Positions 4,787-56,494 of a stretch of 64,000 bases of DNA are shown here, piece by piece. The translations under genes and the position numbers were made by a program. Numbering within the stretch: the stretch's first letter is position 1; every line of letters begins with the position of its first letter. The notes beneath the pieces were generated by a model. It was not told the origin of the DNA, did no database searches, and was given only the letters and a program-made list of their open reading frames with translations. The stretch lies in the IMG/VR virus record IMGVR_UViG_2671181136_000006. One strand, given 5' to 3'. The DNA is from a virus (Duplodnaviria > Heunggongvirae > Uroviricota > Caudoviricetes).

Positions 4787-4847
4787 GTGTTTTTCTCTTA
4801 TCGTTTAGTAACTACATTCTTACACAAATTAGGTAAGTATTTACCTA

Positions 4848-6533
4848 TCATTTAACGCGTTTGAAAACGTATACGCTGACTGTGATCCCTGTGTCTTCAA
4901 ACTCGTTGGTAAACGACTTCCCTCTGGCATAAACGTAATTATCCATCGTCATCCAGTCCAGTATTGGCGCAGTGCCCGGCAATACTGCTACAAGACGCCC
5001 GCCGACTTTCAGATGCCCAAGCGCAGCCAGAGTGTGCTCTCTATGACGACCAAGCGAGTACGGCGGGTTCATAACGATTTTGTCGAACTGATAACCTGCG
5101 TTGTCCTCAGACCACTTTATGAAGTCGCAGCAAATCGTGTTCGTATACCCTTTTCCACGCAGGATATCAGCGAAGAGAGGTGCGATTTCTATGCAGGTAA
5201 CATCTTCCAGATCGGCGTTAATATAGGCCAGAAGATCCCCACGTCCGGCTTGAGGCTCCAGCAGCTTCTCACCAGGCTTCAATTCAGTGGCTCTGGCAAC
5301 GTACTCAGCAATCAAGCGTGGGGTAGGGTAGAACTGGTGTGATTTTGTATCCGGTATTAATCCGGTAGCCACAATCGTATTTAGCGTATGGACGATGTCA
5401 TACGGGAACTGCCAGTGTTTTTTCTCCTGCACGCCGCCAATGAAGCTCAGTGTGCGCTCAAGCTCTTCCACCTGCGACTTCTGGAGAGCTGAATCAGAGA
5501 AGTACCATACGCCTTTGTCTTTGCTCAATCGCCCGTCACGAAGCGCAGTGCGAACCGGCACGGAGATCGTCTTCTGGATTAACCCGAACTGCTTTGGTGC
5601 CCGTGTTTTTGGCGCGGTGCGACATGGCGCGGGGATTGCAGCAGGCATACTGTAAGCCAGCACCTCATTCAACTTCCAGGCCACGTCAGGATGTATTTCA
5701 AAGTGAACGTTGCCGTTCTTGAACATCTTCACGCGCATCAGATTTCCATCGACGTTCATCCAGTCACCGGTCTGGCAGTCGTTTGCCCGATACGCAGCTG
5801 ATAGCACCTCAGCAGTGCGGTTGATGGTAATAAATTCTTTGTGCGCGAAGAAATGAAGCAAGACACGCAGATCGTCGATGTAGTCCTCTTTGCGATAGTT
5901 CACGCTAACGCTGTCCCGCCAGAAATCAGAAATGCAGTCAGCGATTATCAGCCGCTCGCTGAAACCGTTTGTCTTATTTGTCTTGTGCGCAGGACTCAGC
6001 GCCTTAAACAAGCCATACACGCGCTCAGAGAGATATTTGTGCCTGTCATTCAGCAAATTAAGCATCGTGGGTATGACCGTTTCTGCTTTGAACTCCGGTA
6101 CACCAACGAACTCTTTAACCTTCATCTGGTAGCCGGTTCTGTCAGTTTTGATGACTTCCTGTTTGCCCTCTATAAACTGCTCGCGCCACTCATCTCGACG
6201 GGAAGCTGGCATGATCAGCAAAACGTTAGTCATGTCCGTGACCTTCCTCCAGTACTCGGCCCAAATATTCTGTTTCACCCATTCCAGATCGACTTTATCC
6301 AACCAACCTCGATTTAAACGCGAGCGATCTTCATCTGGTCGATGGTTTAGTCTCAGCAGGCGATTAATCATGTTGTGGCGTTCGTCGCCATAAACGAAGT
6401 CGTGTACCTGATACATGAAGGCGATCTCTTTCTCGCACTCGGCCACGATTTCGTGGATGACATTCATTTCCTGACGATAGTCGATAGCCGTGTTTGAGCT
6501 GGCATCGTCGATGATGGAAAGGGCTGTATTCAT
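4848..6533 (-). CDS. DNA N6-adenine methyltransferase with large uncharacterised N-terminal domain
   Basis: C-terminal third carries EPQAGRGDL (AdoMet-binding-like) and NPPY catalytic motif; about 330 aa N-terminal region without recognised motif. Confidence 0.65.
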   Translation of the reverse strand: MNTALSIIDDASSNTAIDYRQEMNVIHEIVAECEKEIAFMYQVHDFVYGDERHNMINRLLRLNHRPDEDRSRLNRGWLDKVDLEWVKQNIWAEYWRKVTDMTNVLLIMPASRRDEWREQFIEGKQEVIKTDRTGYQMKVKEFVGVPEFKAETVIPTMLNLLNDRHKYLSERVYGLFKALSPAHKTNKTNGFSERLIIADCISDFWRDSVSVNYRKEDYIDDLRVLLHFFAHKEFITINRTAEVLSAAYRANDCQTGDWMNVDGNLMRVKMFKNGNVHFEIHPDVAWKLNEVLAYSMPAAIPAPCRTAPKTRAPKQFGLIQKTISVPVRTALRDGRLSKDKGVWYFSDSALQKSQVEELERTLSFIGGVQEKKHWQFPYDIVHTLNTIVATGLIPDTKSHQFYPTPRLIAEYVARATELKPGEKLLEPQAGRGDLLAYINADLEDVTCIEIAPLFADILRGKGYTNTICCDFIKWSEDNAGYQFDKIVMNPPYSLGRHREHTLAALGHLKVGGRLVAVLPGTAPILDWMTMDNYVYARGKSFTNEFEDTGITVSVYVFKRVK

Positions 6534-8750: not shown

Positions 8751-8898
8751 GTGGACTCCATCCAGTGTCAGAAAGAGTTGCGGCTGGCGATTGCCAGCCG
8801 CCTTTCTCGTTCCATCCTGGAACTGTGTCTTACCGACACATTGTCATCCTGACGCCGATAAGATACATGATTTAAAATAATAGGTAAACACTTACTTA

Positions 8899-9489
8899 CT
8901 ATTTATTATAAACAAAACCAATATCTTTCTTGTGAGGCATATCTGCTGCTGAAAAAGCTGCGATCTTCGCGAGTCGATCACATATTTCATTTTCACGATG
9001 CCCGGCGTGACCTTTAACCCACTTCCAGCGAACATTATGTCGACTTGCGGCCTCATCCAGACGCTTCCACAGATCAACATTCTTTACTGGTTTTTTGTCA
9101 GAAGTCATCCATCCATTGCGTTTCCACCATTTCATCCACTGTGTCATGCCGTTTTTCAGATACTGGCTATCAGAGTGCAAAATAACGTTGCATGGATATT
9201 TCAAACGCTCCAGCCCGATAAGTGCCCCCATCATCTCCATGCGGTTATTGGTGGTGCTATGAAAACCATCTGAGAACTCGCGTTCCTCACCACGATACTG
9301 GAGAACGATACCGTAACCGCCCGGGCCACCCGGATTTTTAAGGCAAGAGCCATCACTAAAGATTTTCACGGTTTTAAGCTGGGGATTGAACTCTACGACA
9401 GGCGTTGTGGGATTGGTGCGGGGGGAATTTTTGTTTTTGGCTTTTTTGCGAGTTTTTGCTTGCGATCGGGCTGGTGTCTTCGTCGTCAT
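8899..9489 (-). CDS. rnhA: ribonuclease HI
   Basis: FSDGSC..NPGxGGYG...TNNRMEMMG...DSQY...KGHAGH..NE.CD motifs near-collinear with E. coli RNase HI; start set to ATG 9489 preceded by AGGAG; basic N-terminal extension. Confidence 0.9.
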
Positions 9490-11081: not shown

Positions 11082-11264
11082 CTTCTTTCTCGATAGGTAA
11101 GTATATACCTATTTTTGCATTTGATTTTATGTCTGGCAATCAAATAAAACGCGCCAGAAATGCAAACGAGAAGCTCTCTGGCGCGTTTTTGTGGTGCTGG
11201 GTATGTGATTGGCTTACCCAGTACTATAAAGCTCTCTATGGGCTTTATTTTAAGTAGGGGAACG

Positions 11265-18283: not shown

Positions 18284-20599
18284 TCAGATTTTGCAGGCTC
18301 CGTCGCACTCATCTTCTGGCTCGACGGCTACAGCTTGCGCCAGTGGATTCTGCGGTTCGTCGTCATCACGCTTTCCTGCACCATCTCTGGTGTTGTGGTA
18401 GTAAAGCGTTTTAACTCCCATCTTGTAGGCGAGAAGCAAATCTGACAGTAGCGTCATCATTGGGACTTTATCGCCTTCAAAGCGAGAAGGGTCATAGTTG
18501 GTATTGGCTGAAATAGCCTGGTCAAAGAACTTCTGGATGATCGCCACCTTTGTCAGATAGCCGCGGTTGTCCGGCATATCCCACAGGTATTCATACTGTT
18601 CCTTCAGTTTTTCAAACTCAGGCACGACCATCTTAACGATGCCGTCCTTAGAAGATTTCACCGACACCGGGCCACGAGGCGGTTCGATGCCGTTGGTGGA
18701 ATTAGTGATCTGGCTGGAAGTCTCGCATGGCATTTGTGCCGTCAGTGTGGAGTTGCGAAGGCCGTATTTTGCAATACGTTCACGCAGTTCTTCCCACGGC
18801 ATCTTTAACTCAAAGTTGGTTTCGCCACTTTCGTCTAATGAAGAACGGTAATGGTCGATCGGCAACTGACCAATTGCGTACTTGGTCTGCTCAAACCAGT
18901 CACACTCACCTTTTGCTTCAGCAAGTCGGCAGCTGGCATCAAGAAGGTAATACTGGATAGCTTCGAATGTTTCATGCACCAGTTTATTGCCAGCGGTATC
19001 AGAATAACGAACGCCATTCTTTGCCAGGTAATAAGCAAAGTTGGTTACACCAATTCCCAAGCTACGACGAGCTTTGGCAGGCACTTCGGCTGCCTCCATC
19101 GGATAGTCTTGATAATCCAGTAACGAATCCAGTGCAGCAACGGCATAGAACGCCACCTCTTTAAGAGACTCCAGTGAACGGATGGCTCCGAGGTTAAAAG
19201 CGGATAAAGTGCATAGCGCGATCTCACCGTTCGGGTCGTCGGTAAATGCCAGTGGACGGGTGGGTAGGGTGATCTCCATACACAGGTTTGACTGGCGGAC
19301 AGGTGCAAGAGCAGGAATGAAAGCGCCATGCTCATTAATATGATCGACGTTCGCAATATAAATTCGGCCCGTGGACGCTCGTTCCTGCATCAGAGATGAG
19401 AACAGCTCAATGGCAGGTACTGACTTCTTGCGAATTGAATCATCGGCTTCGTATTTATGGTACAGCTTTTCAAACAGCTCCTGGTCTGTGAAGAAGGCTT
19501 CGTACATATCAGGCACATCATGCGGGCTGAACAGAGTGATGTTCTCGCTTCTGACGAGTCGACGGTACATTAGACGGTTACTCATGACGCCGTAATCAAG
19601 ATGGCGAACGCGGTTTTCATCAATACCACGGTTATTTTTCACCACCAGCAGACTTTCAACTTCAAGATGCCAGATCGGGTAAAACGCTGTTGCTGCGCCA
19701 CCACGAACACCACCTTGCGAACAAGATTTAACAGCCGTCTGGAAATGCTTCAGGAATGGAATAACTCCGGTATGGGTGGCTTCACCATTGCGGATCTCGC
19801 TGCCCAGCGCACGGATACGGCCAAAACCAATACCAATTCCAGCACGACGTGAAACGTAGTCGATAATTGCGGCTGAAGCTGCACTAATCCCTTTCAGACT
19901 ATCGCCAGACTCAATCAGCACACAACTGGAGAACTGACGGGTTGGAGTACGGACGCCGGCCATGATTGGTGTGGGCAGAGACAGTTTGAACGTACTTGTA
20001 ACGTCATAGAAACCTTTGACCATCTCCATACGTGTTTTGCCAGCGCAGTCGTCTTCCCAATTCTGGAACAGACACATGCCTACCAGCATATAGATATGTT
20101 GCGGCCCCTCATGAATCTCACCAGTAACACGGTTTTGAACGAGGTATTTGCTTTGCAACTGCACCGTAGCTGCATAGCCAAAAAGATCGTCACGTTTAGG
20201 CTTAATGTAATTGCCGAGTTCTTCGATCTCTTCAAACGAATAATGTGTCAGCAAATCCTTGTCATAAACGCCCTTGTTAACGTTCTTGACAATGTGTTGG
20301 TAGAAGTTCGGATAGTCGTAACGACCGAAGGCATCTTTGCGGATTTTAAAAATGTTCAGGCGGGCAGCCACCTGTGAGTAATTTGGTGCTTCTGGTGAGA
20401 TCAAATCAGCGGCAGATTTAACCAAAGCCTCATGCAACTGGCTGGTGGTCATCCCATCAAAAATGCTGGCCGCAGCTCCCATTGCTACAGCGGATGCGCT
20501 TACACCACGAATGCCTTCTACGCCATACATTACGACGCGGTTGTATTTTTCTTCGGATAACGGCTCTGTTTGGCCGTTACGTTTTACGATGCTTATCAT
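18284..20599 (-). CDS. nrdA: ribonucleotide reductase class Ia alpha subunit
   Basis: 771 aa; N-terminal ATP-cone (VKRNG..E....K), catalytic-site motifs, C-terminal CxxC tail. Confidence 0.95.
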   Translation of the reverse strand: MISIVKRNGQTEPLSEEKYNRVVMYGVEGIRGVSASAVAMGAAASIFDGMTTSQLHEALVKSAADLISPEAPNYSQVAARLNIFKIRKDAFGRYDYPNFYQHIVKNVNKGVYDKDLLTHYSFEEIEELGNYIKPKRDDLFGYAATVQLQSKYLVQNRVTGEIHEGPQHIYMLVGMCLFQNWEDDCAGKTRMEMVKGFYDVTSTFKLSLPTPIMAGVRTPTRQFSSCVLIESGDSLKGISAASAAIIDYVSRRAGIGIGFGRIRALGSEIRNGEATHTGVIPFLKHFQTAVKSCSQGGVRGGAATAFYPIWHLEVESLLVVKNNRGIDENRVRHLDYGVMSNRLMYRRLVRSENITLFSPHDVPDMYEAFFTDQELFEKLYHKYEADDSIRKKSVPAIELFSSLMQERASTGRIYIANVDHINEHGAFIPALAPVRQSNLCMEITLPTRPLAFTDDPNGEIALCTLSAFNLGAIRSLESLKEVAFYAVAALDSLLDYQDYPMEAAEVPAKARRSLGIGVTNFAYYLAKNGVRYSDTAGNKLVHETFEAIQYYLLDASCRLAEAKGECDWFEQTKYAIGQLPIDHYRSSLDESGETNFELKMPWEELRERIAKYGLRNSTLTAQMPCETSSQITNSTNGIEPPRGPVSVKSSKDGIVKMVVPEFEKLKEQYEYLWDMPDNRGYLTKVAIIQKFFDQAISANTNYDPSRFEGDKVPMMTLLSDLLLAYKMGVKTLYYHNTRDGAGKRDDDEPQNPLAQAVAVEPEDECDGACKI

Positions 20600-20672
20600 G
20601 TATCACCAAATAAAGAGGGCCACTAAATATAGTGGCCCATGTTAATAGATAAGTACTTACCTATCAATGAAA

Positions 20673-25216: not shown

Positions 25217-25470
25217 GTGTTTTTCCTTTGTGGTTATTTTGATACAAATTTTAAGAGCAATGAGAAGGTAAACAACTATGCATAACGGTATGTTAGGAAT
25301 GAAACGAGCGTCTTAATATACAAAATTTATAAGTAAGTATATACCTATTTATTGTGGCGCAACTTTGCTTGTCTGTATGACTAAAAATAAGACAGGATCA
25401 CTGTAGAACGCTATGAGAGCTATTTTGAGGAGGCGTAGATTCTATCTACGCCAATATACGATCTGGAGGG

Positions 25471-28834: not shown

Positions 28835-28873
28835 GATAGGTAGATACTAACTTATATAAACTTTACTGTAAAC

Positions 28874-32843: not shown

Positions 32844-32904
32844 GTGTTTTCCTATGTGGTTGTTATGCGAAAATAATAAGTAAGTACTTATATATTTTCA
32901 AGAG

Positions 32905-36311: not shown

Positions 36312-36428
36312 GTGTTTCTCCTTGTTGTGATTTGGCCGATGGCGCTATGCGCGTTGGGCTTTCGTTCATTCGTGGCTCTTTCGAGCTGTTAAATGATAGA
36401 TCAGTACTTACTTATTATCTATCAAAAA

Positions 36429-41920: not shown

Positions 41921-42015
41921 GCGTTTTTCCTTTGTTCTCTAATGAGCGTTCAACTTCTTATATAAATATATCATCATCTATCGTAAGTGGTTACTTATCA
42001 TTAAGGCTGTTTTGT

Positions 42016-44124
42016 TCACTTTAAAATGATACGAGATAGTTCAGTAACTACAGATGAACCAAGACTATCAACGCTCGTTACCAGGGCATGATTTGAGTAA
42101 AATCTCTCCGGTGCGTCAGTCATGATGCCAATTGCCATCAAATCAATATCAGTCTGCGTTTCAATTTGCTTCGCAACTGAACGCAAATGAGCGTCAAAAC
42201 CTCTCCCAACAGCCCACGGCGCGCCATCACTCAGAACAAGCATGATCTTCCTGTCCTCCAAGCGACCGGAAAATAACGATGCAAGGCTGGCTATGCTTTC
42301 ACCATCCACGTTATTAAGAAGTGGGAATGTGTAGCCTACGCACCCCATACGTGAGCGAACTTCGCGAGAATTTACCTTTTCATTCCAATTTTTGATGATA
42401 GGTAGCATTAAAGATTCAAAGCGAGAGAACTCATACTTGACAGCCTTAAGTTCTCCTGCCGCCATATGACTACCAAATGTAGTGAAGCCGGTGATAATGT
42501 TGGGAACATTTATTCGATCAAGGGCATCGGCGATGGTATATGCACTTGCAAGAGCCAATTGTATCGTTATACCACTCATTGAACCTGATAAATCAATCAC
42601 TTGTTGAACACAGGCGTTAACGGCTTTAGATTCTTCTTTTTTACGAAACACGCGAGCATCATTCATTGCTAATCTGTAGATACTAGAACCATGAATGCGC
42701 CCCCGACGCTGGCCCGGTATAAACTGAACTCTGTTTCTGCTTGCTATTGCTCGCTCCAGGTCTTTTGCCAGCGTCGACGAAACACCTGACGAAAGATGCT
42801 TTTCAATATATTTGTCGAAGAGCTGGTTGCCTTCAGGAACGATGCGATAGCGGCTGATTGGATATCCTCCCAAATCAATATCGGAGAATGTTTTAATAAG
42901 CCGTTTGATATGGGCTTCTGCCTGATCAATCGAGCCGATGAAGTCGTATGAGCGATTGTATGGCCTGTATTCGCTTTTCGAGCTTTCTGTTAACTCGCTT
43001 TTAATCGTTTCGGATAGCGCATCTTCTGTCATGCCTCCGACTTCATCTTCCATGCTATCCAACTCCTCTAAAGCCTCTTCCAGACTCATTTTTGACGGAG
43101 TTGGGATATCTGAAGAGCCGTCTTCTGTCGTTTTTCTTTTTTCGTGGTCAGCGGTTAATGATTCTGACGCCGCGTTATCAGAAGCATCAGAATCTGATAC
43201 CTCTTTATCATTTTCTGTATCATCGAATATTGTTTCTGATGATTCAGAATTATCTGAATCATCACTGTCGTTATTATCATGTTTGTGCTTACTGTGTGAT
43301 TCTGATTTGATAGATTTGTGATTATCTAACACTGAGGGTGTCTCATGATCTTCGTTGTCTTCACTGTTTTCTCCAGAGGCATCCGTCTGGTCAGCGTCTG
43401 AAGGATCGGAAGTTTTTCCCGGAGCTGACTCCTTACCTTTGCTTTCACTTTCAGTGTCTTTGAGGATCTTAGCTATGGTCGCAGCCACCTTTACACAATC
43501 CTCGGTGCAAGACATGTTACGCACGGCCACATCGATACCATGTTCTTTTAATAATGAAATTGGTTTCTCAATGACAGGCCAATATTCATCCATGAAATCT
43601 ACGAACGGTGCTTGGCCATCCCAGGCTCTTACAACCGGACAGAGAAAGAAGTTTAGAAAAAGCGCGCGCTGATCTTTGCCACAATAAGCAATAGCCTCTG
43701 AAGCCTTTGGTTTAAAGACTTTTTCGATTATAAGGCGCTGAGTTGCCATCAGATTACGTCTTGTTCCGTTAAAGACCTGACCCATTTTTCGCTCGATGAA
43801 CACGTCTTCTAAGGCATTCCATAGCGACCAGGAAGGAACGCGTCCTTTTTCTCTCATTTTGTTGGACACACGAATATCGGTAAACAAAATGTGAGCAACC
43901 TCATGATCGAGAAATCCGCGCACAGCATTCATCAATGCCGGTGTTGCGTTATCCGGGATTGATGGGATGTTTACGAGAATTGGCTCTCCATCATCGTTAT
44001 AGCGAACATAAGCGTCGTCCCCTCGTTCTGCAACAGGGATGTTTTTACCTGAAAGGAGAGCGACTACTCGTTTTACACTGTCACGGAAGTCCTGAACCTC
44101 TTTGATGGAACGTTTTTTAGACAT
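42016..44124 (-). CDS. CobT-like protein with acidic low-complexity region and C-terminal vWA domain
   Basis: D/E/S-rich stretch (about aa 230-340), vWA MIDAS-like DLSGSMSG. Confidence 0.6.
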   Translation of the reverse strand: MSKKRSIKEVQDFRDSVKRVVALLSGKNIPVAERGDDAYVRYNDDGEPILVNIPSIPDNATPALMNAVRGFLDHEVAHILFTDIRVSNKMREKGRVPSWSLWNALEDVFIERKMGQVFNGTRRNLMATQRLIIEKVFKPKASEAIAYCGKDQRALFLNFFLCPVVRAWDGQAPFVDFMDEYWPVIEKPISLLKEHGIDVAVRNMSCTEDCVKVAATIAKILKDTESESKGKESAPGKTSDPSDADQTDASGENSEDNEDHETPSVLDNHKSIKSESHSKHKHDNNDSDDSDNSESSETIFDDTENDKEVSDSDASDNAASESLTADHEKRKTTEDGSSDIPTPSKMSLEEALEELDSMEDEVGGMTEDALSETIKSELTESSKSEYRPYNRSYDFIGSIDQAEAHIKRLIKTFSDIDLGGYPISRYRIVPEGNQLFDKYIEKHLSSGVSSTLAKDLERAIASRNRVQFIPGQRRGRIHGSSIYRLAMNDARVFRKKEESKAVNACVQQVIDLSGSMSGITIQLALASAYTIADALDRINVPNIITGFTTFGSHMAAGELKAVKYEFSRFESLMLPIIKNWNEKVNSREVRSRMGCVGYTFPLLNNVDGESIASLASLFSGRLEDRKIMLVLSDGAPWAVGRGFDAHLRSVAKQIETQTDIDLMAIGIMTDAPERFYSNHALVTSVDSLGSSVVTELSRIILK

Positions 44125-44222
44125 GGCTAATCCTTTGTTATGAAAACAAATTATTTACTAGTGTGTTTAATGTAGCACTGCGCGAACAGGGAACTAAGCC
44201 ATTCGCGCAGGGAGAAGAGGGG

Positions 44223-44435
44223 TTAACAGATTCTGACGGCTAAAGACCCGGAGCCGGTATTGAGAAGCGTGAAGCGTTTGTTGTTAAATTCGAATATAAA
44301 GCCAGTTGTGTCATTCACACCAACCTGAATCTGCTCATTCGGTAGATCGGTGAGGATGTCAGCTACACACTCATCAGCTAATTTCTGTACGTGTCCGATC
44401 TCAAGAGCGATTAGGCTGGAAATAGTGGTGTTCAT
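44223..44435 (-). CDS. hypothetical protein
   Basis: 70-aa ORF. Confidence 0.3.
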   Translation of the reverse strand: MNTTISSLIALEIGHVQKLADECVADILTDLPNEQIQVGVNDTTGFIFEFNNKRFTLLNTGSGSLAVRIC

Positions 44436-44612
44436 TCAATCAATCCATTCTAACTTATACTATGGTAAGGAATACTACTAAAATTTATATCAATACTGAA
44501 TACATTCATATCATATACAAGTTAATTTTCTTACCTGTTTTGGGCTAATTTTTCTCCGTGCAATGGCCTTTAACCGGTCTTTTAAGTGCCTATCGAAAAA
44601 AATGATAATAGC

Positions 44613-44657
44613 TTTACAACCCTAACCTTTGATGTAATATCGGTAAGCACTTACCAG
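44613..44657 (+). promoter_or_regulatory. sigma70-like promoter (TTTACA-16-TAATAT) with palindromic operator CGGTAAGCACTTACCAG just downstream
   Basis: -35 at 44613-44618, -10 at 44635-44640, palindrome 44641-44657 belongs to the dispersed GGTAAG..CTTACC family. Confidence 0.55.
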
Positions 44658-44686
44658 TGAGAATTGAACGCGCAAAGGTTGTAACA

Positions 44687-45073
44687 ATGTCTGACAACAA
44701 GATTGAATTTATAGAAAGTCGCTATGCTGCTTTTATCGCAGGGCTGATTGAATCCTCACCTATGAGTCAGGCCCAAATAGCCAGACTTATTGGTTATAAA
44801 AATGCCAACAACCTTTCTTTAATTAAAAGTGGCAAAATTCCTTTGCCTATCGATAAGGTTCGTCCGTTGGCGCTGGCGCTGGGTATTGAGCCAAGTCGTC
44901 TTATGATGATGGTGCTGGAAGAACGCCAACCTGAACTCGCAGCATTTTTATACAAAGAAGGCACCGCTCCTCTTAACGAGGACGAAAAACAGGTTCTTGC
45001 TGCATATAACGAGCGATTCGGTAAAGAGAAAGGCGCATCACAAAAGGTTGTTGAGGCTATAAAGTCTCTATGA
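44687..45073 (+). CDS. HTH DNA-binding protein (XRE-like), candidate repressor
   Basis: SQAQIARLIGYKNANNLSLIKSG helix-turn-helix pattern; start set to MSDNK (ORF track starts 44657). Confidence 0.5.
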   Translation: MSDNKIEFIESRYAAFIAGLIESSPMSQAQIARLIGYKNANNLSLIKSGKIPLPIDKVRPLALALGIEPSRLMMMVLEERQPELAAFLYKEGTAPLNEDEKQVLAAYNERFGKEKGASQKVVEAIKSL

Positions 45074-46171
45074 AAAATTTACACGAATAAGCTCTGTTGA
45101 TAGACGATCTCCCTTGAATTTGTGGTCAATTTCGTCTAAATCCGGTTGCTCTACGATTGATGCGATGTACGTCGAGAAACTTTCTAAGGCGTCTCGCATC
45201 TCGTCCATATAATCGTGCCGGTCGTAGACTCGATCTATCCCCTCAAGACTGTGGTTCATGATTTTGCGTGATACCTCCTGGCTTATGCCTAATGCTGGGA
45301 AGTAACTACGCGCAGTACGGCGCAAGTCTCGGGGTGTAAATGGCTCAAGCTCCATCAGTTCTGGTCGTTCCAGAATACGACGTAATGCCTGGGCTATTGC
45401 CACTTTAGACATAGGAAGGTCTTTCCCGATTTTTTTATTCGAAGGCACGAGCCACTGGCTGCCTTTACCGTATTCGAACAACTCTTCAATACATGTGCGC
45501 ATTAATGTGCTTAAAGGCAGCGAATGCTCACGGGCAGATTTGTTCCTCTTGCCTTGATTCCAAACCCCACGCTTAAGATTGAACTCACTTTTTTTAGCCC
45601 GCAGTACTTCGTCAGGTCGTCTTGCGGATACAAGACACAGCCTGGCCGCCCATTTTGTACCAGCGCACACATTGAAGTAGTCCCATATATTCCAGAACAC
45701 CCATACCTCTGCGTCGGTCAGCTTCCGCTCGCGAGGTGTGGGCTTTGCGCCACCGGCAACTTTGTTTAGTGACATATCGTTTAACGGTGACACGTCTATC
45801 ATCCCCTGGAAGGCGCACCAGCTAAGGAACTGCTTCATCAGAGAGAAAACGCGGCGGCCCATAACAATTTTGCCATCCAGTATTAGTGGGTTGACCAGTT
45901 GGTTCACCATGAACCTATTAATGTCACTTACTTTTACATCGGCAATGTGCGGCAAAACATGTATCAAAATACAATGAACAGCGATCTCTGGCCGACGTCT
46001 GGTTATCAGCAGAGATAAGCGAGTGAATAACATGAATGCGTCCGAGAATCTCATGTCATTGCTGACCTGGGAGATCATAACGGCCTGCATTTGAGATGCT
46101 CTTTCGAGATACTCAATCGCCTCTTTTGAGGTGTTCTCCGCAGCGCGTGCTCTGTCAAAGCTATTTTTCAT
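45068..46171 (-). CDS. tyrosine site-specific recombinase (integrase/resolvase family)
   Basis: C-terminal catalytic pattern R...H..R...Y (RDLRRTARS; HSLEGIDRVYDRHDY). Confidence 0.8.
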   Translation of the reverse strand: MKNSFDRARAAENTSKEAIEYLERASQMQAVMISQVSNDMRFSDAFMLFTRLSLLITRRRPEIAVHCILIHVLPHIADVKVSDINRFMVNQLVNPLILDGKIVMGRRVFSLMKQFLSWCAFQGMIDVSPLNDMSLNKVAGGAKPTPRERKLTDAEVWVFWNIWDYFNVCAGTKWAARLCLVSARRPDEVLRAKKSEFNLKRGVWNQGKRNKSAREHSLPLSTLMRTCIEELFEYGKGSQWLVPSNKKIGKDLPMSKVAIAQALRRILERPELMELEPFTPRDLRRTARSYFPALGISQEVSRKIMNHSLEGIDRVYDRHDYMDEMRDALESFSTYIASIVEQPDLDEIDHKFKGDRLSTELIRVNFS

Positions 46172-46269
46172 ATGACAATCACCGAGTTACGCCGATTCAC
46201 TGTATAAGTAAACAGTATATTAGGCATAGATTCTTATAGGATCAAGAGTAAAAGTAACTCATTTTCACT

Positions 46270-46302
46270 AATGATTCCATACATAGTAGGTATGGAATCA
46301 TT
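46270..46302. other. candidate recombination site: perfect 13-bp inverted repeats AATGATTCCATAC / GTATGGAATCATT around 7-bp spacer ATAGTAG
   Basis: read directly; about 100 bp upstream of recombinase start; arm repeated at 48885 and 49895. Confidence 0.5.
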
Positions 46303-46438
46303 GAGGATGCGTTTTTTGAAATCTACCCTTCGTTCTAGGAGGTAATATTGAAAATCAAAATAATACATAACAATGCATATAAACGTTTGGTAGGGTACAA
46401 TAAGACAACTTATACTAATAAAGAGGGATTCGAGACAG

Positions 46439-46993
46439 ATGCACTTGCATAAGTTGGTTACACCTGGTTTGGCTTCATTGCCGGGTGATCTGTCATATTT
46501 AGATATAGACTTTGTTTTCTCTGGCAATGAAGCTCGTAAGGCTAGATACCGTTTAGTCTTTTGCCCTCCTTCTTTAGATCCTGTTGCCGCAGAAACTATG
46601 CATAATATGTTAGGTGCTGATGTTTATGGGTTGTGTGTATCTGTCGTTAGTTTTGTGGACATGATTCAACTTGACAGGCAGCAAGAACAGCTCCAGAATG
46701 TCGCTCTTGGAGCGGAAGAGCCAATTAACGTATTTGCCAAACCCGAAGGGTCTTTTAATCTTACTTTAGGTGAACTTCAATACCTTTACGGTACTTTAGT
46801 TGACTTAATGCTCAAAGTTGCCGACAATGAAGGCATACAGATTTTATTCTTTGCGGCAGAACGCGAAGAACTGATGGCCACATACAAGAGATATGTGAAG
46901 AGATTTACACAAGAGCGTGGCCTAACTTATTTAAATGACGGAGCTTCCTATGCGATACGAACACAACACTACCCAAAACAAAGGGAAGATTGA
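46439..46993 (+). CDS. hypothetical protein
   Basis: 184-aa ORF after AT-rich region. Confidence 0.4.
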   Translation: MHLHKLVTPGLASLPGDLSYLDIDFVFSGNEARKARYRLVFCPPSLDPVAAETMHNMLGADVYGLCVSVVSFVDMIQLDRQQEQLQNVALGAEEPINVFAKPEGSFNLTLGELQYLYGTLVDLMLKVADNEGIQILFFAAEREELMATYKRYVKRFTQERGLTYLNDGASYAIRTQHYPKQRED

Positions 46994-47113
46994 TTTTAAA
47001 ACTATCCATGCTAGCAAAGTCGAAATGATCAAACGATTCATGACTGCTAAAGCTGAAGCTGAACGCAAGGGTGAAGTGGTCTTTAAGCCACTGTAGTGGT
47101 TAGCTAGAAGTTA

Positions 47114-47140
47114 TGAAAAAGGCCCATATGGGCCTTTTTT
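47114..47140. terminator. bidirectional rho-independent terminator
   Basis: AAAAAGGCCCATATGGGCCTTTTTT between convergent genes. Confidence 0.7.
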
Positions 47141-47177
47141 GTTATATGTACTATATGTACAAAGATGTGGCTTTTAC

Positions 47178-47423
47178 TTATAAGAAACTTACGAAAGATG
47201 CCATCTCTGTGTATCCGCCAATCGGCTGGCCATCGATCAGCACCTGGGGGATAGTCTCTACCGGTTTACCAACAATTTCACTAAGTTTTTCCTTGTCGAT
47301 ACCGGCAGTGGTGATGTCGATGTACTCATAATCACCGTAGCCATGTCCCTTTAGTTGCTTCGCCAGCTCGACTGCACGTTTGCAGTATGAGCAGTTATCT
47401 CGTCCGTAGATAGTGATCGTCAT
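47178..47423 (-). CDS. glutaredoxin
   Basis: 81 aa; CSYC active site, KPVETIPQVLIDGQPIGGYTE matches Grx fold motifs. Confidence 0.85.
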   Translation of the reverse strand: MTITIYGRDNCSYCKRAVELAKQLKGHGYGDYEYIDITTAGIDKEKLSEIVGKPVETIPQVLIDGQPIGGYTEMASFVSFL

Positions 47424-47770
47424 TGCTTTGCCTCATGCCACTTTTGCTTCAGGAGATAGCCTTCCAGGGGCCAGATTTGATCGATAGCATCTTTTCGAGC
47501 GTACTCGCGACCAACATCAAAGTTGAAGATTTCTGGTCTTACGCACGCAGATTTTCCCGTTACGGTATATCCATTTTTGAGAACCATAACGCAGAACGTT
47601 AAGAGTTTTAACGACTCATGACCTTTGTCGATATCTGTTTTTGAATTGTAAACAGAGATGAAGTTATCCCCGTGGCTGGCATCATATGCAGTGAAATAAT
47701 GTTCACTTTGAATGAGTTGTTCAATGTGTTCAGGGGTGACTTTTAGTGGTGTGTTCTCTTTGCTGGTCAT
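47420..47770 (-). CDS. hypothetical protein
   Basis: 116-aa ORF. Confidence 0.4.
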   Translation of the reverse strand: MTSKENTPLKVTPEHIEQLIQSEHYFTAYDASHGDNFISVYNSKTDIDKGHESLKLLTFCVMVLKNGYTVTGKSACVRPEIFNFDVGREYARKDAIDQIWPLEGYLLKQKWHEAKQ

Positions 47771-47811
47771 TATTTCTTCCTACAAAGTTCGTAGACTTGA
47801 CTCTTTCAGTT

Positions 47812-47845
47812 GCAAAAAAGGGGCCGAAGCCCCTTTGAATTTTGC
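47812..47845 (-). terminator. rho-independent terminator downstream of tRNA cluster
   Basis: GGGGCTTCGGCCCC hairpin followed by TTTTTTT on minus strand. Confidence 0.7.
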
Positions 47846-47992
47846 GCTGAAAAAAAAGTGTTGCTAGGATGTTAGCAAGCTATGGTTAAGAACGTCTGCC
47901 GTAATTGTCTATCACAGCGTTGAGCGGTCTGGTTTATGTTAGCGGAGTCTTAATCTGGGTGATTAAAAGGCCAAACCGCTCAACGCTGTGTC

Positions 47993-48079
47993 TGGCGGAG
48001 AGTAATGGAATCGAACCATCATCGCTTGCGCAATGGGACGGTTTTCAAGACCGCTTGAGCACCATGCTCCCTACTCTCC
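47993..48079 (-). tRNA. tRNA-Ser (anticodon TGA), class II with long variable arm
   Basis: manual fold: 7-bp acceptor GGAGAGT/ACTCTCC, anticodon loop CTTGAAA, T-loop TTCGATT, encoded CCA. Confidence 0.75.
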
Positions 48080-48443
48080 GGCCGTTGTGGTGGCCGGTAC
48101 TGAATCTCCGGCATACGGTGCAGCCAATTAGGACTACGGACGATCACCGCTCGCGAAAGGGAAGATTTGCGGCCGCATTTCCCTAACATCCAAGAAAGCT
48201 ATCGCATCAGTCTGCGAATCCACCACAACGGTAAGATCACTACCTTTCGACCAGTCATTGTGCACATGAACGACGATTAACCGTAATGATCTTATCGTTG
48301 TGTTGTGAAGCCAGATGCTTATCTTCTGGTTGCCTCAAAGAGCTGCACTTCCTCACAACGGTAAGAGCACTGGTCTGACTCTATCGATTTACGGGCTTGT
48401 GGGTCAGTATCGCCGATTCGCCCAATGCACTTACCTGTTGTGT

Positions 48444-48519
48444 TGGTGCCGGTTAACGGACTCGAACCGCTGACATCCTGCTTACAAGGCAGACGCTCTA
48501 CCAACTGAGCTAAACCGGC
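48444..48519 (-). tRNA. tRNA-Thr (anticodon TGT)
   Basis: acceptor GCCGGTT/AACCGGC, D-loop AGCTCAGTTGGTAGAGC, anticodon loop CTTGTAA, T-loop GGTTCGAGTCC, CCA. Confidence 0.85.
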
Positions 48520-48523
48520 AATT

Positions 48524-48610
48524 TGGTGGGGAGTGATGGAGTCGAACCACCCGAGTCGCCATGACAGTAGATTTACAGTCTACCCCGCTGCCCCTACGGA
48601 CTAACTCCCC
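48524..48610 (-). tRNA. tRNA-Tyr (anticodon GTA), long variable arm
   Basis: acceptor GGGGAGT/ACTCCCC, anticodon stem GTAGA/TCTAC loop CTGTAAA, T-loop GGTTCGACTCC, CCA. Confidence 0.8.
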
Positions 48611-48615
48611 TAAAT

Positions 48616-48690
48616 TGGCGATGGTGGGTGGATTCGAACCACCGACCAGTTGGTTAACAGCCAACTGCTCTACCGCTGAGCTACACCATC
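48616..48690 (-). tRNA. tRNA-Asn (anticodon GTT)
   Basis: acceptor GATGGTG/CACCATC, anticodon stem GTTGG/CCAAC loop CTGTTAA, T-loop GGTTCGAATCC, CCA. Confidence 0.85.
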
Positions 48691-49468
48691 AATTCAGCAC
48701 TGCCAGTATTTATTACTCAACAGTGCCAATCGCGACGGTTTAGTTTCTGCCAGGAAACGCACCGCTACTTGCACTTTTCGTTAGTGCCAGACGCTTTCGA
48801 CTTCGCTCAATAGTAGAAGGCAAAATCTTTAAGTAGATGATGTTTCTGAGGACAGCACCTACTTTGTAATTTATACAATGTGATGTATGGAATCATTTGT
48901 TGTGAAAACAGGCACCAATGGCAACAGTGGTTAAACCTACACAACAATCCTGTCTTCACAACGTTGAGGCCACTACTCCGATTGAATGTTTGCCCAACAT
49001 GTTACATATCAACGCTCGCCGGTATCTCTGTGAATAGAACCTTAGAATTGATAAAAATGTAATGGCCTCAACGTTATGTGCTGGCTAACCATACCAGCCG
49101 GGCTACGTCGCCGCTTTTTAACCCAGTATAAACGACATAATTGAACAAAATGACGTAACAGGATGGGCGGTCAGTGGCTAAGAATCCGGGAGTCATATGG
49201 AGTTGAAAATATACCAACCGCCCATTCTGTTACTTCATCGGAGGGAACATGAATGTTCCCTCCTGCGTTCTGCAATCACACTCGCTCAGTGTGTCCCATT
49301 TCGGTAACGAGGCTGGAAACTGACCTCGCTGGTGTTTGGCTTATTAGGCTACTGCCAGATAGACTTCTTCGTTTGCACTTGTATTTAAGTTCAAACAGTC
49401 GCGTCTCAACGAAAACAAAGTCATCTTATACACAAAAGATAAGTAAGTAAATACTTATCAATATGTTT

Positions 49469-49759
49469 TTATTCGGTTGTGACTTTTTTGATCAAGGCCA
49501 CTCTACGACTAGGTGTTCTTGTAATGGTGGCAGTGAATCGTTTCGCTTGGATAGTAATGGTTTCGTTCTCCTTAAGTTGCCCGTAGCGAGTTTCCACCAG
49601 GGTGCCAAGACGCCACAGACCATCATCGATACGTTTATGACTAGCAAATTTAATCAGCAACAGTTTTACGACTAACTGACCTACGTAAAAGGCGAATGCG
49701 ACTCCGGCCGCTAAGAAATAGGTGGCCAACCACCATTCCCAAGAAGTTAAATTGCTCAT
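49469..49759 (-). CDS. membrane protein, hypothetical
   Basis: 96 aa, N-terminal hydrophobic helix. Confidence 0.35.
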   Translation of the reverse strand: MSNLTSWEWWLATYFLAAGVAFAFYVGQLVVKLLLIKFASHKRIDDGLWRLGTLVETRYGQLKENETITIQAKRFTATITRTPSRRVALIKKVTTE

Positions 49760-49904
49760 TTTTTCACCTTTGTTTCATGAACTACCCGATACACACGCTT
49801 TCCGATGCACAGTGTTTTGGTTTTAAGTTCCTGCTTAATTAAATCACGACAGATGCCGAAGCCGATAAGGAAGCCACCCATAAAAGCTAATGAGATGTAT
49901 GGAA

Positions 49905-50120
49905 TCATTTTAACGCTCCTGATTCTACTAATTGCTGTAGCAATACTTTCCCTTTATCAGTTAACTGGTAGTTGGCCGAACACCACGTTTCAGAAACGTT
50001 TGCAACCAACCCTAAACGCTCTAACTTAGCTCGCGTTTTAGGCTTCCAGTACTCAGGGAACTCCGGCCACTTACTGATTTCATGAAGCGTTTCCTTCTCC
50101 CGTTTACTTAATACGATCAT
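49905..50120 (-). CDS. hypothetical protein
   Basis: 71-aa ORF; competing plus-strand ORF 49805-50029. Confidence 0.3.
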   Translation of the reverse strand: MIVLSKREKETLHEISKWPEFPEYWKPKTRAKLERLGLVANVSETWCSANYQLTDKGKVLLQQLVESGALK

Positions 50121-56391: not shown

Positions 56392-56494
56392 CCGGTAGGT
56401 AGTTACTTACTTATCACAATGAGCGGATGATAGCGACTGGTGGCAGTTTTTGGAAGTGAAAACGGAAGGGAGTTGTTCTGGTGGTGTCTTTTAA

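What the first reader, a model, noticed from the sequence alone, without database searches (positions are those of the whole stretch)
44613..45073. Candidate autoregulated repressor: strong sigma70-like promoter with a palindrome-family operator at the +1 region of an HTH gene
TTTACA-16 bp-TAATAT lies immediately upstream of CGGTAAGCACTTACCAG, which is a member of the dispersed palindrome family and precedes an XRE-type HTH ORF. The ORF is transcribed divergently from the tyrosine recombinase. This is the classic layout of a self-repressing regulator and nominates this protein as the binder of the dispersed sites.
Basis: inference. Interest (0 to 1): 0.65.

Follow-up and report, generated by a model that had tools for sequence, protein, structure and literature searches.

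The report
Phage-plasmid repressor gene with conserved operator
A small DNA-binding protein gene of an SSU5-like phage-plasmid carries, at its transcription start, the core of a 20-bp palindrome scattered through the phage's lytic genes; it is probably the self-limiting repressor that keeps the phage silent as a plasmid, but who binds the palindromes is not shown.

Summary
The window is an SSU5-like phage-plasmid, 98.5% identical to E. coli LF82 phage Cyrano.

**What holds**
- The dispersed family is real. Its consensus is ATAGGTAAGTACTTACCTAT, with 11 copies at up to 4 mismatches against about 0 expected.
- Promoter and palindrome are invariant in five lineages (E. coli, K. pneumoniae, K. oxytoca, pHCM2, Y. 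pestis pMT1) while the surrounding DNA drifts.
- A distant Acinetobacter relative has a changed family core (AGTCAGTACTGACT), and that variant also sits upstream of its HTH gene.
- The protein models as an XRE fold. Its Cyrano orthologue is transcribed in lysogens.

**Corrections**
- The promoter matches only 9 of 12 positions.
- The site keeps the 14-bp core but lacks the outer TA dinucleotides that are invariant in the family.
- The recombinase gene is convergent and overlaps by 6 bp; it is not divergent.
- That recombinase gene carries a conserved LexA box.
- The protein is 128 aa.
- A second dispersed promoter-palindrome family (AAACAAnTTGTTT) also exists.

**Verdict**
This is a plausible autoregulated maintenance repressor, a new member of a known kind. 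Nothing here tests binding, so its assignment as binder of the dispersed sites rests on inference (about 0.45).

The parts
44613..44618 (+). -35 hexamer TTTACA of the HTH gene promoter (P_HTH)
   Evidence: Invariant in five lineages (alignment A1).
44635..44640 (+). -10 hexamer TAATAT of P_HTH, after a 16-bp spacer
   Evidence: The block TGTAATATC is invariant in five lineages while the spacer varies.
44642..44655 (.). Palindrome core GGTAAG-CA-CTTACC (20-bp family frame 44639-44658). It spans about -6 to +9 of P_HTH. Candidate operator.
   Evidence: The only exact match to GGTAAGNNCTTACC in the window. 4 mismatches to the 20-bp family consensus. C(G/A)GTAAG(C/T)ACTTACCA is conserved in five lineages.
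44674..44678 (+). Shine-Dalgarno-like AAAGG, 8 nt before the ATG
   Evidence: Read from the sequence.
44687..45073 (+). HTH regulator gene, 128 aa, orthologue of CYRAN_45 'putative repressor'
   Evidence: PHROG_8 transcriptional regulator, E = 6.6e-12. Pfam HTH_19/HTH_3 hits fall below their cut-offs. The AF2 model has an XRE fold, and the best Foldseek matches over the HTH domain (ranks 3-7) are C.AhdI and C.BclI, with 434 Cro at rank 44. About 1000 plasmids carry it next to the recombinase gene.
44223..44435 (-). Divergent 70-aa ORF (phrog_2627). It lies upstream of, and on the same strand as, the CobT-like/CobS-like/DnaE genes, which have their own F2 promoter at 44144.
   Evidence: Conserved beside the HTH gene in pHCM2, pMT1 and K. 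oxytoca; Acinetobacter has a small ORF in the same position.
45068..46171 (-). Tyrosine recombinase gene, convergent with the HTH gene with a 6-bp overlap of 3' ends
46198..46245 (-). Recombinase promoter TTGATC (46245-46240), 17-bp spacer, TAATAT (46222-46217), overlapped by LexA box TACTGT-N8-ACAGTG (46217-46198)
   Evidence: Conserved in E. coli, K. pneumoniae, pHCM2, pMT1 and pKqq (alignment A4).
4829..4848 (.). Family F1 palindrome copy (2 mismatches)
8880..8899 (.). F1 copy (4 mismatches)
11093..11112 (.). F1 copy (2 mismatches) directly after TTGCCA-17-TGcAAAAAT, upstream of the adenine methylase gene. Same register as P_HTH.
20645..20664 (.). F1 copy (1 mismatch) between the RuvC-like and RNR alpha genes
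25329..25348 (.). F1 copy (3 mismatches) upstream of the SbcD-like gene
28836..28855 (.). F1 copy (4 mismatches)
32876..32895 (.). F1 copy (3 mismatches), placed after an intrinsic terminator
36396..36415 (.). F1 copy (3 mismatches) upstream of the gp32-like SSB gene
49439..49458 (.). F1 copy (4 mismatches) upstream of the tRNA cluster
56395..56414 (.). F1 copy (4 mismatches)

Best explanation
The 128-aa protein is the plasmid-state (lysogeny) repressor of this SSU5-like phage-plasmid.

**Proposed mechanism**
- It has an XRE-type helix-turn-helix fold and presumably acts as a dimer.
- It binds the 20-bp palindromes ATAGGTAAGTACTTACCTAT that lie in intergenic regions of the lytic genes.
- In at least a subset of these regions the palindrome starts one base after a -10 hexamer, so a bound protein would cover the transcription start.
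- At its own promoter (TTTACA-16-TAATAT) the same register is used, but only the 14-bp core is kept. This probably makes a weaker site that limits the protein's own synthesis once the strong sites are filled (negative autoregulation).
- The protein has no self-cleavage domain. SOS induction would therefore work indirectly, most simply through the LexA-controlled recombinase promoter, which fires towards and across the repressor gene.

**Shown**
- The sequence features, their conservation and their co-variation.
- The fold of the protein.
- Transcription of the orthologue in lysogens (from the literature).

**Inferred**
- DNA binding by this protein and its dimeric state.
- The sign of regulation.
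- The induction route.
For: 1. Hexamers and palindrome are present at the stated positions.
2. Phylogenetic footprint: TTTACA, TGTAATATC and (G/A)GTAAG(C/T)ACTTACCA are the longest invariant block of the 251-bp intergenic region in E. coli, K. pneumoniae, K. oxytoca, S. Typhi pHCM2 and Y. pestis pMT1. The spacer and flanks vary.
3. The family is real, intergenic and conserved. It has 11 copies in the window. Copies in Klebsiella pJN2-26 (14) and pHCM2 (19) share the consensus.
4. Co-variation: the Acinetobacter phage-plasmid, whose HTH is 40% identical, has 13 copies of a changed core AGTCAGTACTGACT in 50 kb against 0.2 expected. Three copies lie in the region upstream of its HTH gene. pKqq has degenerate copies upstream of its HTH gene.
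5. The recognition helix region GYKNANNLSLIKSGK is nearly invariant across lineages.
6. Fold: AF2 mean pLDDT is 74, and 85-89 over residues 11-80. The five-helix XRE domain matches C.AhdI (TM 0.78-0.80), 434 Cro, lambda repressor and SPC32H Rep. PHROG_8 scores E = 6.6e-12.
7. CYRAN_45 (98% identical) is transcribed 10-fold above prophage background in LF82 lysogens. Cyrano is induced 39-fold by ciprofloxacin (PMC9928086).
8. F1 copies were not seen at genes reported as expressed in lysogens (parA operon, repA, Cyrano 88-108 kb).
9. Register test: when the -10 is read as four flank bases plus A1T2 of the palindrome, as at P_HTH, the gene-facing strand has better -10/-35 matches than the opposite strand (6.6 against 5.9 of 12, Wilcoxon p = 0.023, n = 38). 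One clear case is TTGCCA-17-TGcAAAAAT at 11093.
10. The virulent relative phage nickie has the same gene order, no HTH/recombinase module and no fixed-sequence intergenic family: at most 3 regions share a 14-mer, against 6-12 in the phage-plasmids and SSU5.
11. SSU5 has the module deleted and is 97-99.5% identical to pHCM2 around its palindromes.
Against: - There is no binding, transcription-start or reporter data.
- The own-promoter site lacks the outer TA dinucleotides that are invariant in the family. It could therefore be a different class of site.
- The family motif, flanks included, is symmetric, and most copies have no recognisable -35. The orientation signal is modest, and orthologous sites are not independent.
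- Copies occur inside late operons (terminase|portal, after the capsid gene, before the holin), which is unusual for a maintenance repressor.
- The family centre AAGTACTT resembles the P1 late-promoter box AAGTNACTT, which is bound by the activator Lpa.
- Residue 42 of the recognition helix differs between E. coli (N) and K. pneumoniae (I) although the consensus is the same.
- A second dispersed family, F2, lies on clear extended -10 promoters and also needs a lysogeny-time binder.
- SSU5 keeps the palindromes without the gene. This is uninformative because the deletion is recent.
Confidence: 0.45

Rival explanations
1. Another phage protein binds the palindrome family. Candidates are a lytic-cycle transcription factor comparable to P1 Lpa, or a KorB/ParB-like global regulator (two ParB-domain genes precede the packaging genes). 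In this reading the copy at P_HTH lets that factor shut off the repressor gene during lytic growth, drive the leftward 70-aa ORF, or both. The HTH protein would then act at other sites, possibly the F2 palindromes or sites not yet recognised.
For: - The family centre AAGTACTT resembles the P1 late-promoter box AAGTNACTT, and most copies lack a -35.
- Copies lie in structural and lysis operons.
- SSU5 retains the palindromes although the HTH gene is deleted.
- The P_HTH site lacks the family's invariant outer TA.
- On the minus strand the core is followed by GATATT, a possible leftward -10.
- ParB-domain genes are present.
- KorB-type dispersed palindromic operators on plasmids are established knowledge.
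Against: - No Lpa homologue was found. hmmsearch with an Lpa profile against all ORFs of the six SSU5-like stretches searched gave E above 0.9; tblastn with P1 Lpa against four of them gave E above 4.
- With a downstream -10 register there is no difference between gene-facing and opposite strands.
- Several copies lie 2-16 nt before the start codon, too close for a promoter whose -10 follows the palindrome.
- With the upstream register the palindrome covers the start site, which is a repressor position.
- The virulent relative nickie needs lytic promoters too, yet has no such family.
- No other regulator is reported as expressed in the lysogen.
Confidence: 0.3
2. The HTH protein is only a local regulator of its own module, not the master repressor. 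It would control its own promoter and the divergent 70-aa ORF promoter, or modulate the adjacent recombinase, much as controller (C) proteins or Cro-like proteins act. Its resemblance to the dispersed family would then reflect a shared half-site without shared binding.
For: - The best structural matches are restriction-modification controller proteins and small Cro-like proteins. There is a weak PADLOC 'control protein' hit.
- The site is a core-only variant.
- The gene always travels with the recombinase gene.
Against: - The own-promoter site co-varies with the dispersed family in Acinetobacter, which argues for one binder.
- There are no restriction-modification genes beside it in the window.
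- The element needs some lysogeny repressor, and this is the only predicted regulator reported as expressed in lysogens.
Confidence: 0.15
3. The palindromes act as RNA hairpins (terminators, processing or stabilising signals, or translational operators) rather than as DNA-binding sites. The copy in the HTH leader would then be a 5' hairpin.
For: - Many copies start 0-18 nt after the stop codon of the upstream gene.
- Some are next to terminator-like hairpins.
- The P_HTH copy would be transcribed.
Against: - Sequence, not just pairing, is conserved at every position, including the centre GTAC.
- Departures from symmetry are as often A·C as G·U on the sense strand (5 against 5, read by eye), so there is no strand-specific signal.
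- Orthologous copies differ without compensation.
- The whole family changed in concert in Acinetobacter, which points to a sequence-specific trans factor.
- No Rfam family matches the region.
Confidence: 0.05

Closest known systems
Phage P1 C1 repressor and its dispersed operators (plasmid prophage)
   Same: Both are plasmid prophages whose lytic genes are scattered in many transcription units, each marked by a copy of one short conserved site. In both, the repressor gene has sites at its own promoter (P1 annotation).
   Different: There is no sequence similarity to C1 (E = 4.9). C1 is 283 aa and binds asymmetric 17-bp sites, whereas this protein is a 128-aa XRE-fold protein and the sites are 20-bp perfect palindromes. 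P1 uses a separate activator (Lpa) for late genes, whereas here the same palindrome also occurs in late operons.
Small XRE/Cro-CI-type phage repressors without a cleavage domain, induced through an SOS-controlled partner (for example Salmonella phage SPC32H Rep, N15)
   Same: The HTH domain has the same fold; PDB 5d4z is among the matches. Neither has a peptidase S24 domain. Induction by DNA damage is reported for Cyrano, and a LexA box sits in the module.
   Different: Here the LexA box controls a convergent tyrosine recombinase gene, not a recognisable antirepressor. No antirepressor has been identified. Sequence identity to solved structures is below 25%.
P1 late promoters (9-bp inverted repeat at -22 bound by Lpa)
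   Same: Both are dispersed palindromic boxes with centre AAGT(N)ACTT placed next to a -10-like hexamer, and most copies have no -35.
   Different: The half-site spacing differs by 1 bp and the motif here is 20 bp. No Lpa homologue was found. There is no strand asymmetry in the Lpa-like register.
Restriction-modification controller (C) proteins such as C.AhdI and C.BclI
   Same: These are the best structural matches to the HTH domain (TM 0.71-0.80). They are autoregulators that bind palindromes at their own promoter.
   Different: No restriction-modification genes are adjacent. This protein has an extra three-helix C-terminal region, and its sites are dispersed genome-wide.

Membership tests
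XRE / Cro-CI-type helix-turn-helix regulators | Sequence match to the HTH_3 / HTH_19 profiles | tested here: inconclusive
   HTH_19 scores E = 0.0015 and 18.9 bits against a cut-off of 30.2. HTH_3 scores E = 0.035. PHROG_8 'transcriptional regulator' scores E = 6.6e-12. A PDB profile search found only 2kpj at E = 0.074.
XRE / Cro-CI-type helix-turn-helix regulators | Five-helix bundle with helix 2-turn-helix 3 | tested here: met
   The AF2 model has helices at 12-23, 28-34, 41-47, 55-64 and 69-80, with pLDDT 85-89. Foldseek matches C.AhdI at TM 0.78-0.80 and rmsd 1.5-2.7 Å, plus 434 Cro and lambda repressor.
Autoregulated phage maintenance repressor | Expressed in the lysogen | tested here: met
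   Taken from the literature, not measured here. CYRAN_45 (98% identical) is 10-fold above prophage background in LF82 (PMC9928086).
Autoregulated phage maintenance repressor | Operator overlapping its own promoter | tested here: inconclusive
   A conserved palindrome lies at about -6 to +9 of a conserved promoter. The transcription start and binding have not been determined.
Autoregulated phage maintenance repressor | The protein binds the operator and confers repression or immunity | not testable with these tools
   Requires EMSA, ChIP or reporter assays.
LexA/CI-type self-cleaving repressors | C-terminal peptidase S24 domain | tested here: not met
   The protein is 128 aa with no S24 hit in Pfam. 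The C-terminal part is three short helices.
Dispersed palindrome family F1 (ATAGGTAAGTACTTACCTAT) | 14-bp core GGTAAGTACTTACC | tested here: met
   13 of 14 positions match in the window and 14 of 14 in K. pneumoniae.
Dispersed palindrome family F1 (ATAGGTAAGTACTTACCTAT) | Outer T2A3 and T18A19, invariant in 26/26 copies | tested here: not met
   The P_HTH site reads ATC...AGT. A3, T18 and A19 are absent in all five lineages.
P1 Lpa-dependent late promoters | An Lpa homologue is encoded | tested here: not met
   tblastn gave E above 4. A profile hmmsearch over ORFs of the window, Cyrano, Klebsiella, SSU5, pKqq and Acinetobacter stretches gave E above 0.9. Some genome parts were not searched.
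P1 Lpa-dependent late promoters | A -10 lies downstream of the box on the gene side only | tested here: not met
   Sense and antisense matches are equal: -10 at 4.0 against 4.1, and -35 at 2.1 against 2.1.
SOS (LexA) box at the recombinase promoter | CTGT-N8-ACAG overlapping the -10/+1 and conserved | tested here: met
   Located at window 46198-46217 with 2 mismatches to the 20-mer. Present at the same place in five lineages.

The most novel reading that the evidence does not exclude
The switch of SSU5-like phage-plasmids (including pHCM2 of S. Typhi, pMT1 of Y. pestis and Klebsiella resistance phage-plasmids) may work without repressor cleavage or an antirepressor.

- A non-cleavable XRE repressor holds some twenty palindromic operators spread over early and late lytic units, plus a weak one on its own start site.
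- DNA damage releases LexA from the promoter of the convergent, overlapping recombinase gene.
- Transcription from that promoter runs antisense through the repressor gene and its promoter and on into the leftward replication genes.
- This would switch the element by transcriptional interference.
Probability: 0.15. Interest if true: 0.7.

Novelty: new member of a known kind. Interest (0 to 1): 0.45.

Why it matters
SSU5-like phage-plasmids are common in clinical Enterobacteriaceae and include pHCM2, pMT1 and Klebsiella and E. coli elements that carry resistance genes.

I found no paper that describes how they choose between plasmid and lytic life.

This analysis turns that gap into a short list of experiments. 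It gives:
- one candidate repressor;
- an exact operator consensus with all its copies;
- a second promoter-palindrome family;
- a conserved LexA box.

The repressor-operator layout itself is of a familiar kind.

Tried and rejected
1. **Family as directional promoters with the -10 at the 3' end of the palindrome.** Rejected. Sense and antisense strands do not differ, and several copies lie too close to the start codon.
2. **P1 Lpa system.** The boxes look alike, but no Lpa homologue was found.
3. **RNA hairpin reading.** Rejected because the sequence itself is conserved, changes are uncompensated and the family evolved in concert.
4. **Decay test.** I asked whether SSU5, which lacks the gene, has more degenerate palindromes than pHCM2. 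The test is uninformative because the two are 97-99.5% identical around the sites.
5. **Recognition-helix co-variation.** Inconclusive. The helix is nearly invariant, and position 42 varies without any change in the consensus.
6. **CYRAN_43 homologue as an alternative regulator.** This 184-aa protein is 723-fold over background in the lysogen. It has no family hits and has homologues on large contigs of chromosome size (Pantoea, Xenorhabdus), so it is more likely cargo.
7. **Similarity to P1 C1.** None found.
8. **Rfam search of 43000-50000.** Only tRNAs.
9. **Literature searches.** Searches for an SSU5-group repressor or for the motif found nothing beyond the Cyrano annotation. Several key papers were not held: the P1 genome paper, the D6 paper and the SSU5 announcement.
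10. **Dimer prediction.** Not possible with the tools.

Full report
**What the window is**

Positions 42000-47500 are 98.5% identical to Escherichia phage Cyrano, the SSU5-like phage-plasmid of E. coli LF82, and 99.7% identical to 'phage CMS-2020a'. Almost all genes of the window lie on the minus strand and encode replication, recombination and nucleotide metabolism functions. The ORF in the finding is the orthologue of CYRAN_45, annotated 'putative repressor'.

**Checking the observation**

- TTTACA lies at 44613-44618, followed by 16 bp and then TAATAT at 44635-44640.
- CGGTAAGCACTTACCAG follows at 44641-44657.
- The palindrome proper is GGTAAG-CA-CTTACC at 44642-44655.
- The promoter matches 9 of 12 positions. 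The scan found no excess of such matches over shuffles (4 against 6.3), so 'strong' is not justified by the sequence alone.
- The ORF most likely starts at ATG 44687. An AAAGG lies 8 nt upstream, and homologues begin at this position. This gives 128 aa.
- The recombinase gene (45068-46171, minus strand) is convergent with the ORF, and their 3' ends overlap by 6 bp. It is not divergent. The divergent neighbour is a 70-aa ORF at 44223-44435.

**The dispersed family (F1) is real**

- GGTAAGNNCTTACC at up to 2 mismatches occurs 7 times against 1.34 expected.
- Extending the matches gives a perfect 20-bp palindrome, ATAGGTAAGTACTTACCTAT. It has 11 copies at up to 4 mismatches, and none occurred in 50 shuffles.
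- The ten other copies are all intergenic, between or in front of minus-strand lytic genes.
- The same consensus is found in Klebsiella pJN2-26, with two perfect copies.
- It is also found in pHCM2, with 19 copies, and in SSU5.
- In those genomes copies also lie in structural and lysis operons.
- A de novo census of intergenic 14-mers returns this motif as the top family in every one of these elements.

**The copy at the HTH gene is atypical**

It keeps the 14-bp core but has 4 mismatches in 20. In particular it lacks A3 on the left and T18/A19 on the right; T2A3 and T18A19 are invariant in 26 of 26 other copies. This holds in all five lineages.

**Evidence that promoter and site are functional**

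In an alignment of the intergenic region from E. coli, K. pneumoniae, K. oxytoca, pHCM2 and Y. pestis pMT1, the block CTTTACAA...TGTAATATC(G/A)GTAAG(C/T)ACTTACCA is the longest invariant stretch. The spacer and the rest of the region diverge.

A distant Acinetobacter phage-plasmid has an HTH only 40% identical but the same local gene order. It carries its own family, with core AGTCAGTACTGACT and 13 copies in 50 kb against 0.2 expected. Three of those copies lie upstream of its HTH gene. The K. quasipneumoniae element pKqq has ATAAGTAAG..CTTACTTAT copies, with degenerate ones upstream of its HTH gene. The site at the HTH gene therefore evolves together with the family. That argues for one binder for both, without naming it.

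**The protein**

- Pfam HTH profiles match only below their cut-offs. PHROG_8 matches at E = 6.6e-12.
- An AlphaFold2 model built from 23 homologues has mean pLDDT 74, and 85-89 over residues 11-80.
- The model shows a five-helix XRE domain followed by three less confident helices.
- Foldseek matches the domain to C.AhdI and C.BclI, 434 Cro, lambda repressor, Stl and the SPC32H repressor.
- There is no S24 cleavage domain.
- Homologues are found almost only on contigs of about 100-116 kb.
- About 1000 plasmids carry the gene, nearly always beside the recombinase gene.
- In LF82 the orthologue is transcribed 10-fold above prophage background, and Cyrano is induced 39-fold by ciprofloxacin (PMC9928086).

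**What the palindromes do**

I tested three readings.

(a) *Directional promoter with the -10 at the 3' end of the palindrome, as in P1 late promoters.*
- The family centre AAGTACTT does resemble the P1 box AAGTNACTT.
- However, the motif and its flanks are symmetric (AAWR|palindrome|YWTT).
- Gene-facing and opposite strands do not differ in this register.
- Several copies lie only 2-16 nt from the start codon.
- No Lpa homologue is detectable.

(b) *RNA hairpin.* This is rejected because the sequence itself is conserved, changes are uncompensated and the family evolved in concert.

(c) *Operator directly after a -10.* P_HTH reads TAATAT-C-GGTAAG, and the family reads aAWRAT-A-GGTAAG in the same register. 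In that register the gene-facing strand scores better than the opposite strand (6.6 against 5.9 of 12; Wilcoxon p = 0.023; n = 38, sites not independent). Some copies follow good promoters, for example TTGCCA-17-TGcAAAAAT at 11093 and its orthologues. This favours a protein that blocks initiation, but the support is modest.

**Comparison with relatives**

Pseudomonas phage nickie is virulent and shares the gene order helicase, primase, ligase, CobT, CobS, DnaE, SSB and RecA, followed by the SbcCD-like nuclease, RuvC and RNR genes. It has no HTH/recombinase module and no fixed-sequence intergenic family. Its intergenic regions instead show inverted repeats of variable sequence around a -10-like loop.

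SSU5 lacks the module; its tRNA-Asn gene is followed directly by the CobT-like gene. It is 97-99.5% identical to pHCM2 around the palindromes. Its retention of the palindromes therefore says nothing about who binds them.

**A complication**

There is a second dispersed family, F2. In gene orientation it reads TGnGATAAT, then about 10 nt, then AGAAAACAAnTTGTTT. This is an extended -10 promoter followed by a 13-bp palindrome, sometimes with a second copy upstream. It has 9 or more copies in the window, lying in front of the CobT-like, helicase and parA genes among others. It is abundant in the accessory region, where F1 is absent. F2 also needs a binder, so the element has at least two global regulons. 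The lysogen transcriptome flags only one predicted regulator as expressed.

**The induction side**

A LexA box (TACTGT-N8-ACAGTG, 46217-46198) overlaps the -10 of a TTGATC-17-TAATAT promoter directly upstream of the recombinase gene. Box and promoter are conserved in five lineages, including pKqq. That gene runs into the 3' end of the HTH gene. SOS-induced antisense transcription is therefore a simple, untested way to switch off a repressor that cannot cleave itself.

**Verdict**

| Reading | Confidence |
|---|---|
| The HTH protein binds the F1 palindromes and limits its own promoter | about 0.45 |
| Another factor binds F1 and controls the HTH gene | about 0.30 |
| Purely local regulator | about 0.15 |
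| RNA-level function | about 0.05 |

The gene was already annotated as a putative repressor. What I could not find in the literature is the operator set, its conservation and co-variation, the second family and the LexA-controlled convergent recombinase gene.

Noticed in passing
window 3635, 6546, 7260, 7989, 18209, 31730, 44144, 55618, 58854 (each about 16 bp); also Cyrano L016 5111-5177: Second dispersed family, F2. In gene orientation it reads TGnGATAAT (extended -10), about 10 nt, then AGAAAACAAnTTGTTT, sometimes with a second palindrome copy near -45. It precedes the CobT-like, helicase, parA and RNR beta genes and many small accessory genes. It is abundant where the first family is absent, and absent from the Acinetobacter element and from phage nickie.
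   Followed up: partly
window 46198-46245 (minus strand): LexA box TACTGT-N8-ACAGTG overlapping the -10 of TTGATC-17-TAATAT, directly upstream of the tyrosine recombinase gene. Conserved in E. coli, K. pneumoniae, pHCM2, pMT1 and pKqq. The gene is convergent with the repressor gene.
   Followed up: yes
window 46272-46300: Inverted repeat TGATTCCATAC-N7-GTATGGAATCA, about 100-130 nt upstream of the recombinase start codon (46171). Position 12 varies (C/T) in K. pneumoniae; the other 21 arm positions are invariant in five lineages. It looks like a dif/lox-type core site (11-7-11), which would make the 'integrase' a plasmid multimer resolvase.
   Followed up: partly
window 46439-46993 (+): A 184-aa ORF (phrog_28788) with no Pfam, NCBIfam or PADLOC hit. 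Its Cyrano orthologue CYRAN_43 is the most highly expressed prophage gene in LF82 lysogens (723-fold over background). Homologues also occur on large contigs of chromosome size (Pantoea, Xenorhabdus), so it is probably cargo.
   Followed up: partly
window, many gene starts (for example 4786, 7241, 7964, 18177, 32843, 55598): A recurrent translation-initiation motif, GGAAAA(A)CACATG, is shared by 10-11 intergenic regions.
   Followed up: no
window 47993-48690 (minus strand): Four tRNA genes (Ser-TGA, Thr-TGT, Tyr-GTA, Asn-GTT), with an F1 palindrome (49439) upstream of the cluster. Cyrano has three tRNAs and SSU5 has one.
   Followed up: no
L017 (Pseudomonas phage nickie 25001-75000) intergenic regions: This virulent relative has conserved gene order. 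Most of its intergenic regions hold an inverted repeat of variable sequence around a -10-like loop (TACAAT, TATACT, CATAAT), followed by TCAAAC. The element is conserved in structure, not sequence, and its function is unknown.
   Followed up: no
L007 (SSU5) 42525-42761 compared with window 44124-48690: SSU5 lacks the whole segment between the tRNA genes and the CobT-like gene: glutaredoxin, the 184-aa ORF, the recombinase, the HTH gene and the 70-aa ORF. Elsewhere it is 97-99.5% identical to pHCM2. It looks like a recent deletion derivative of a pHCM2-type plasmid prophage.
   Followed up: partly
window 20599-20664; Klebsiella L004 44026-44085: Some F1 palindromes are followed within 6-11 nt by a GC-rich hairpin with a T-run, between the RuvC-like and RNR alpha genes and after the major capsid gene. 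Whether this is a 5'-terminal stabilising hairpin or a terminator is unresolved.
   Followed up: no
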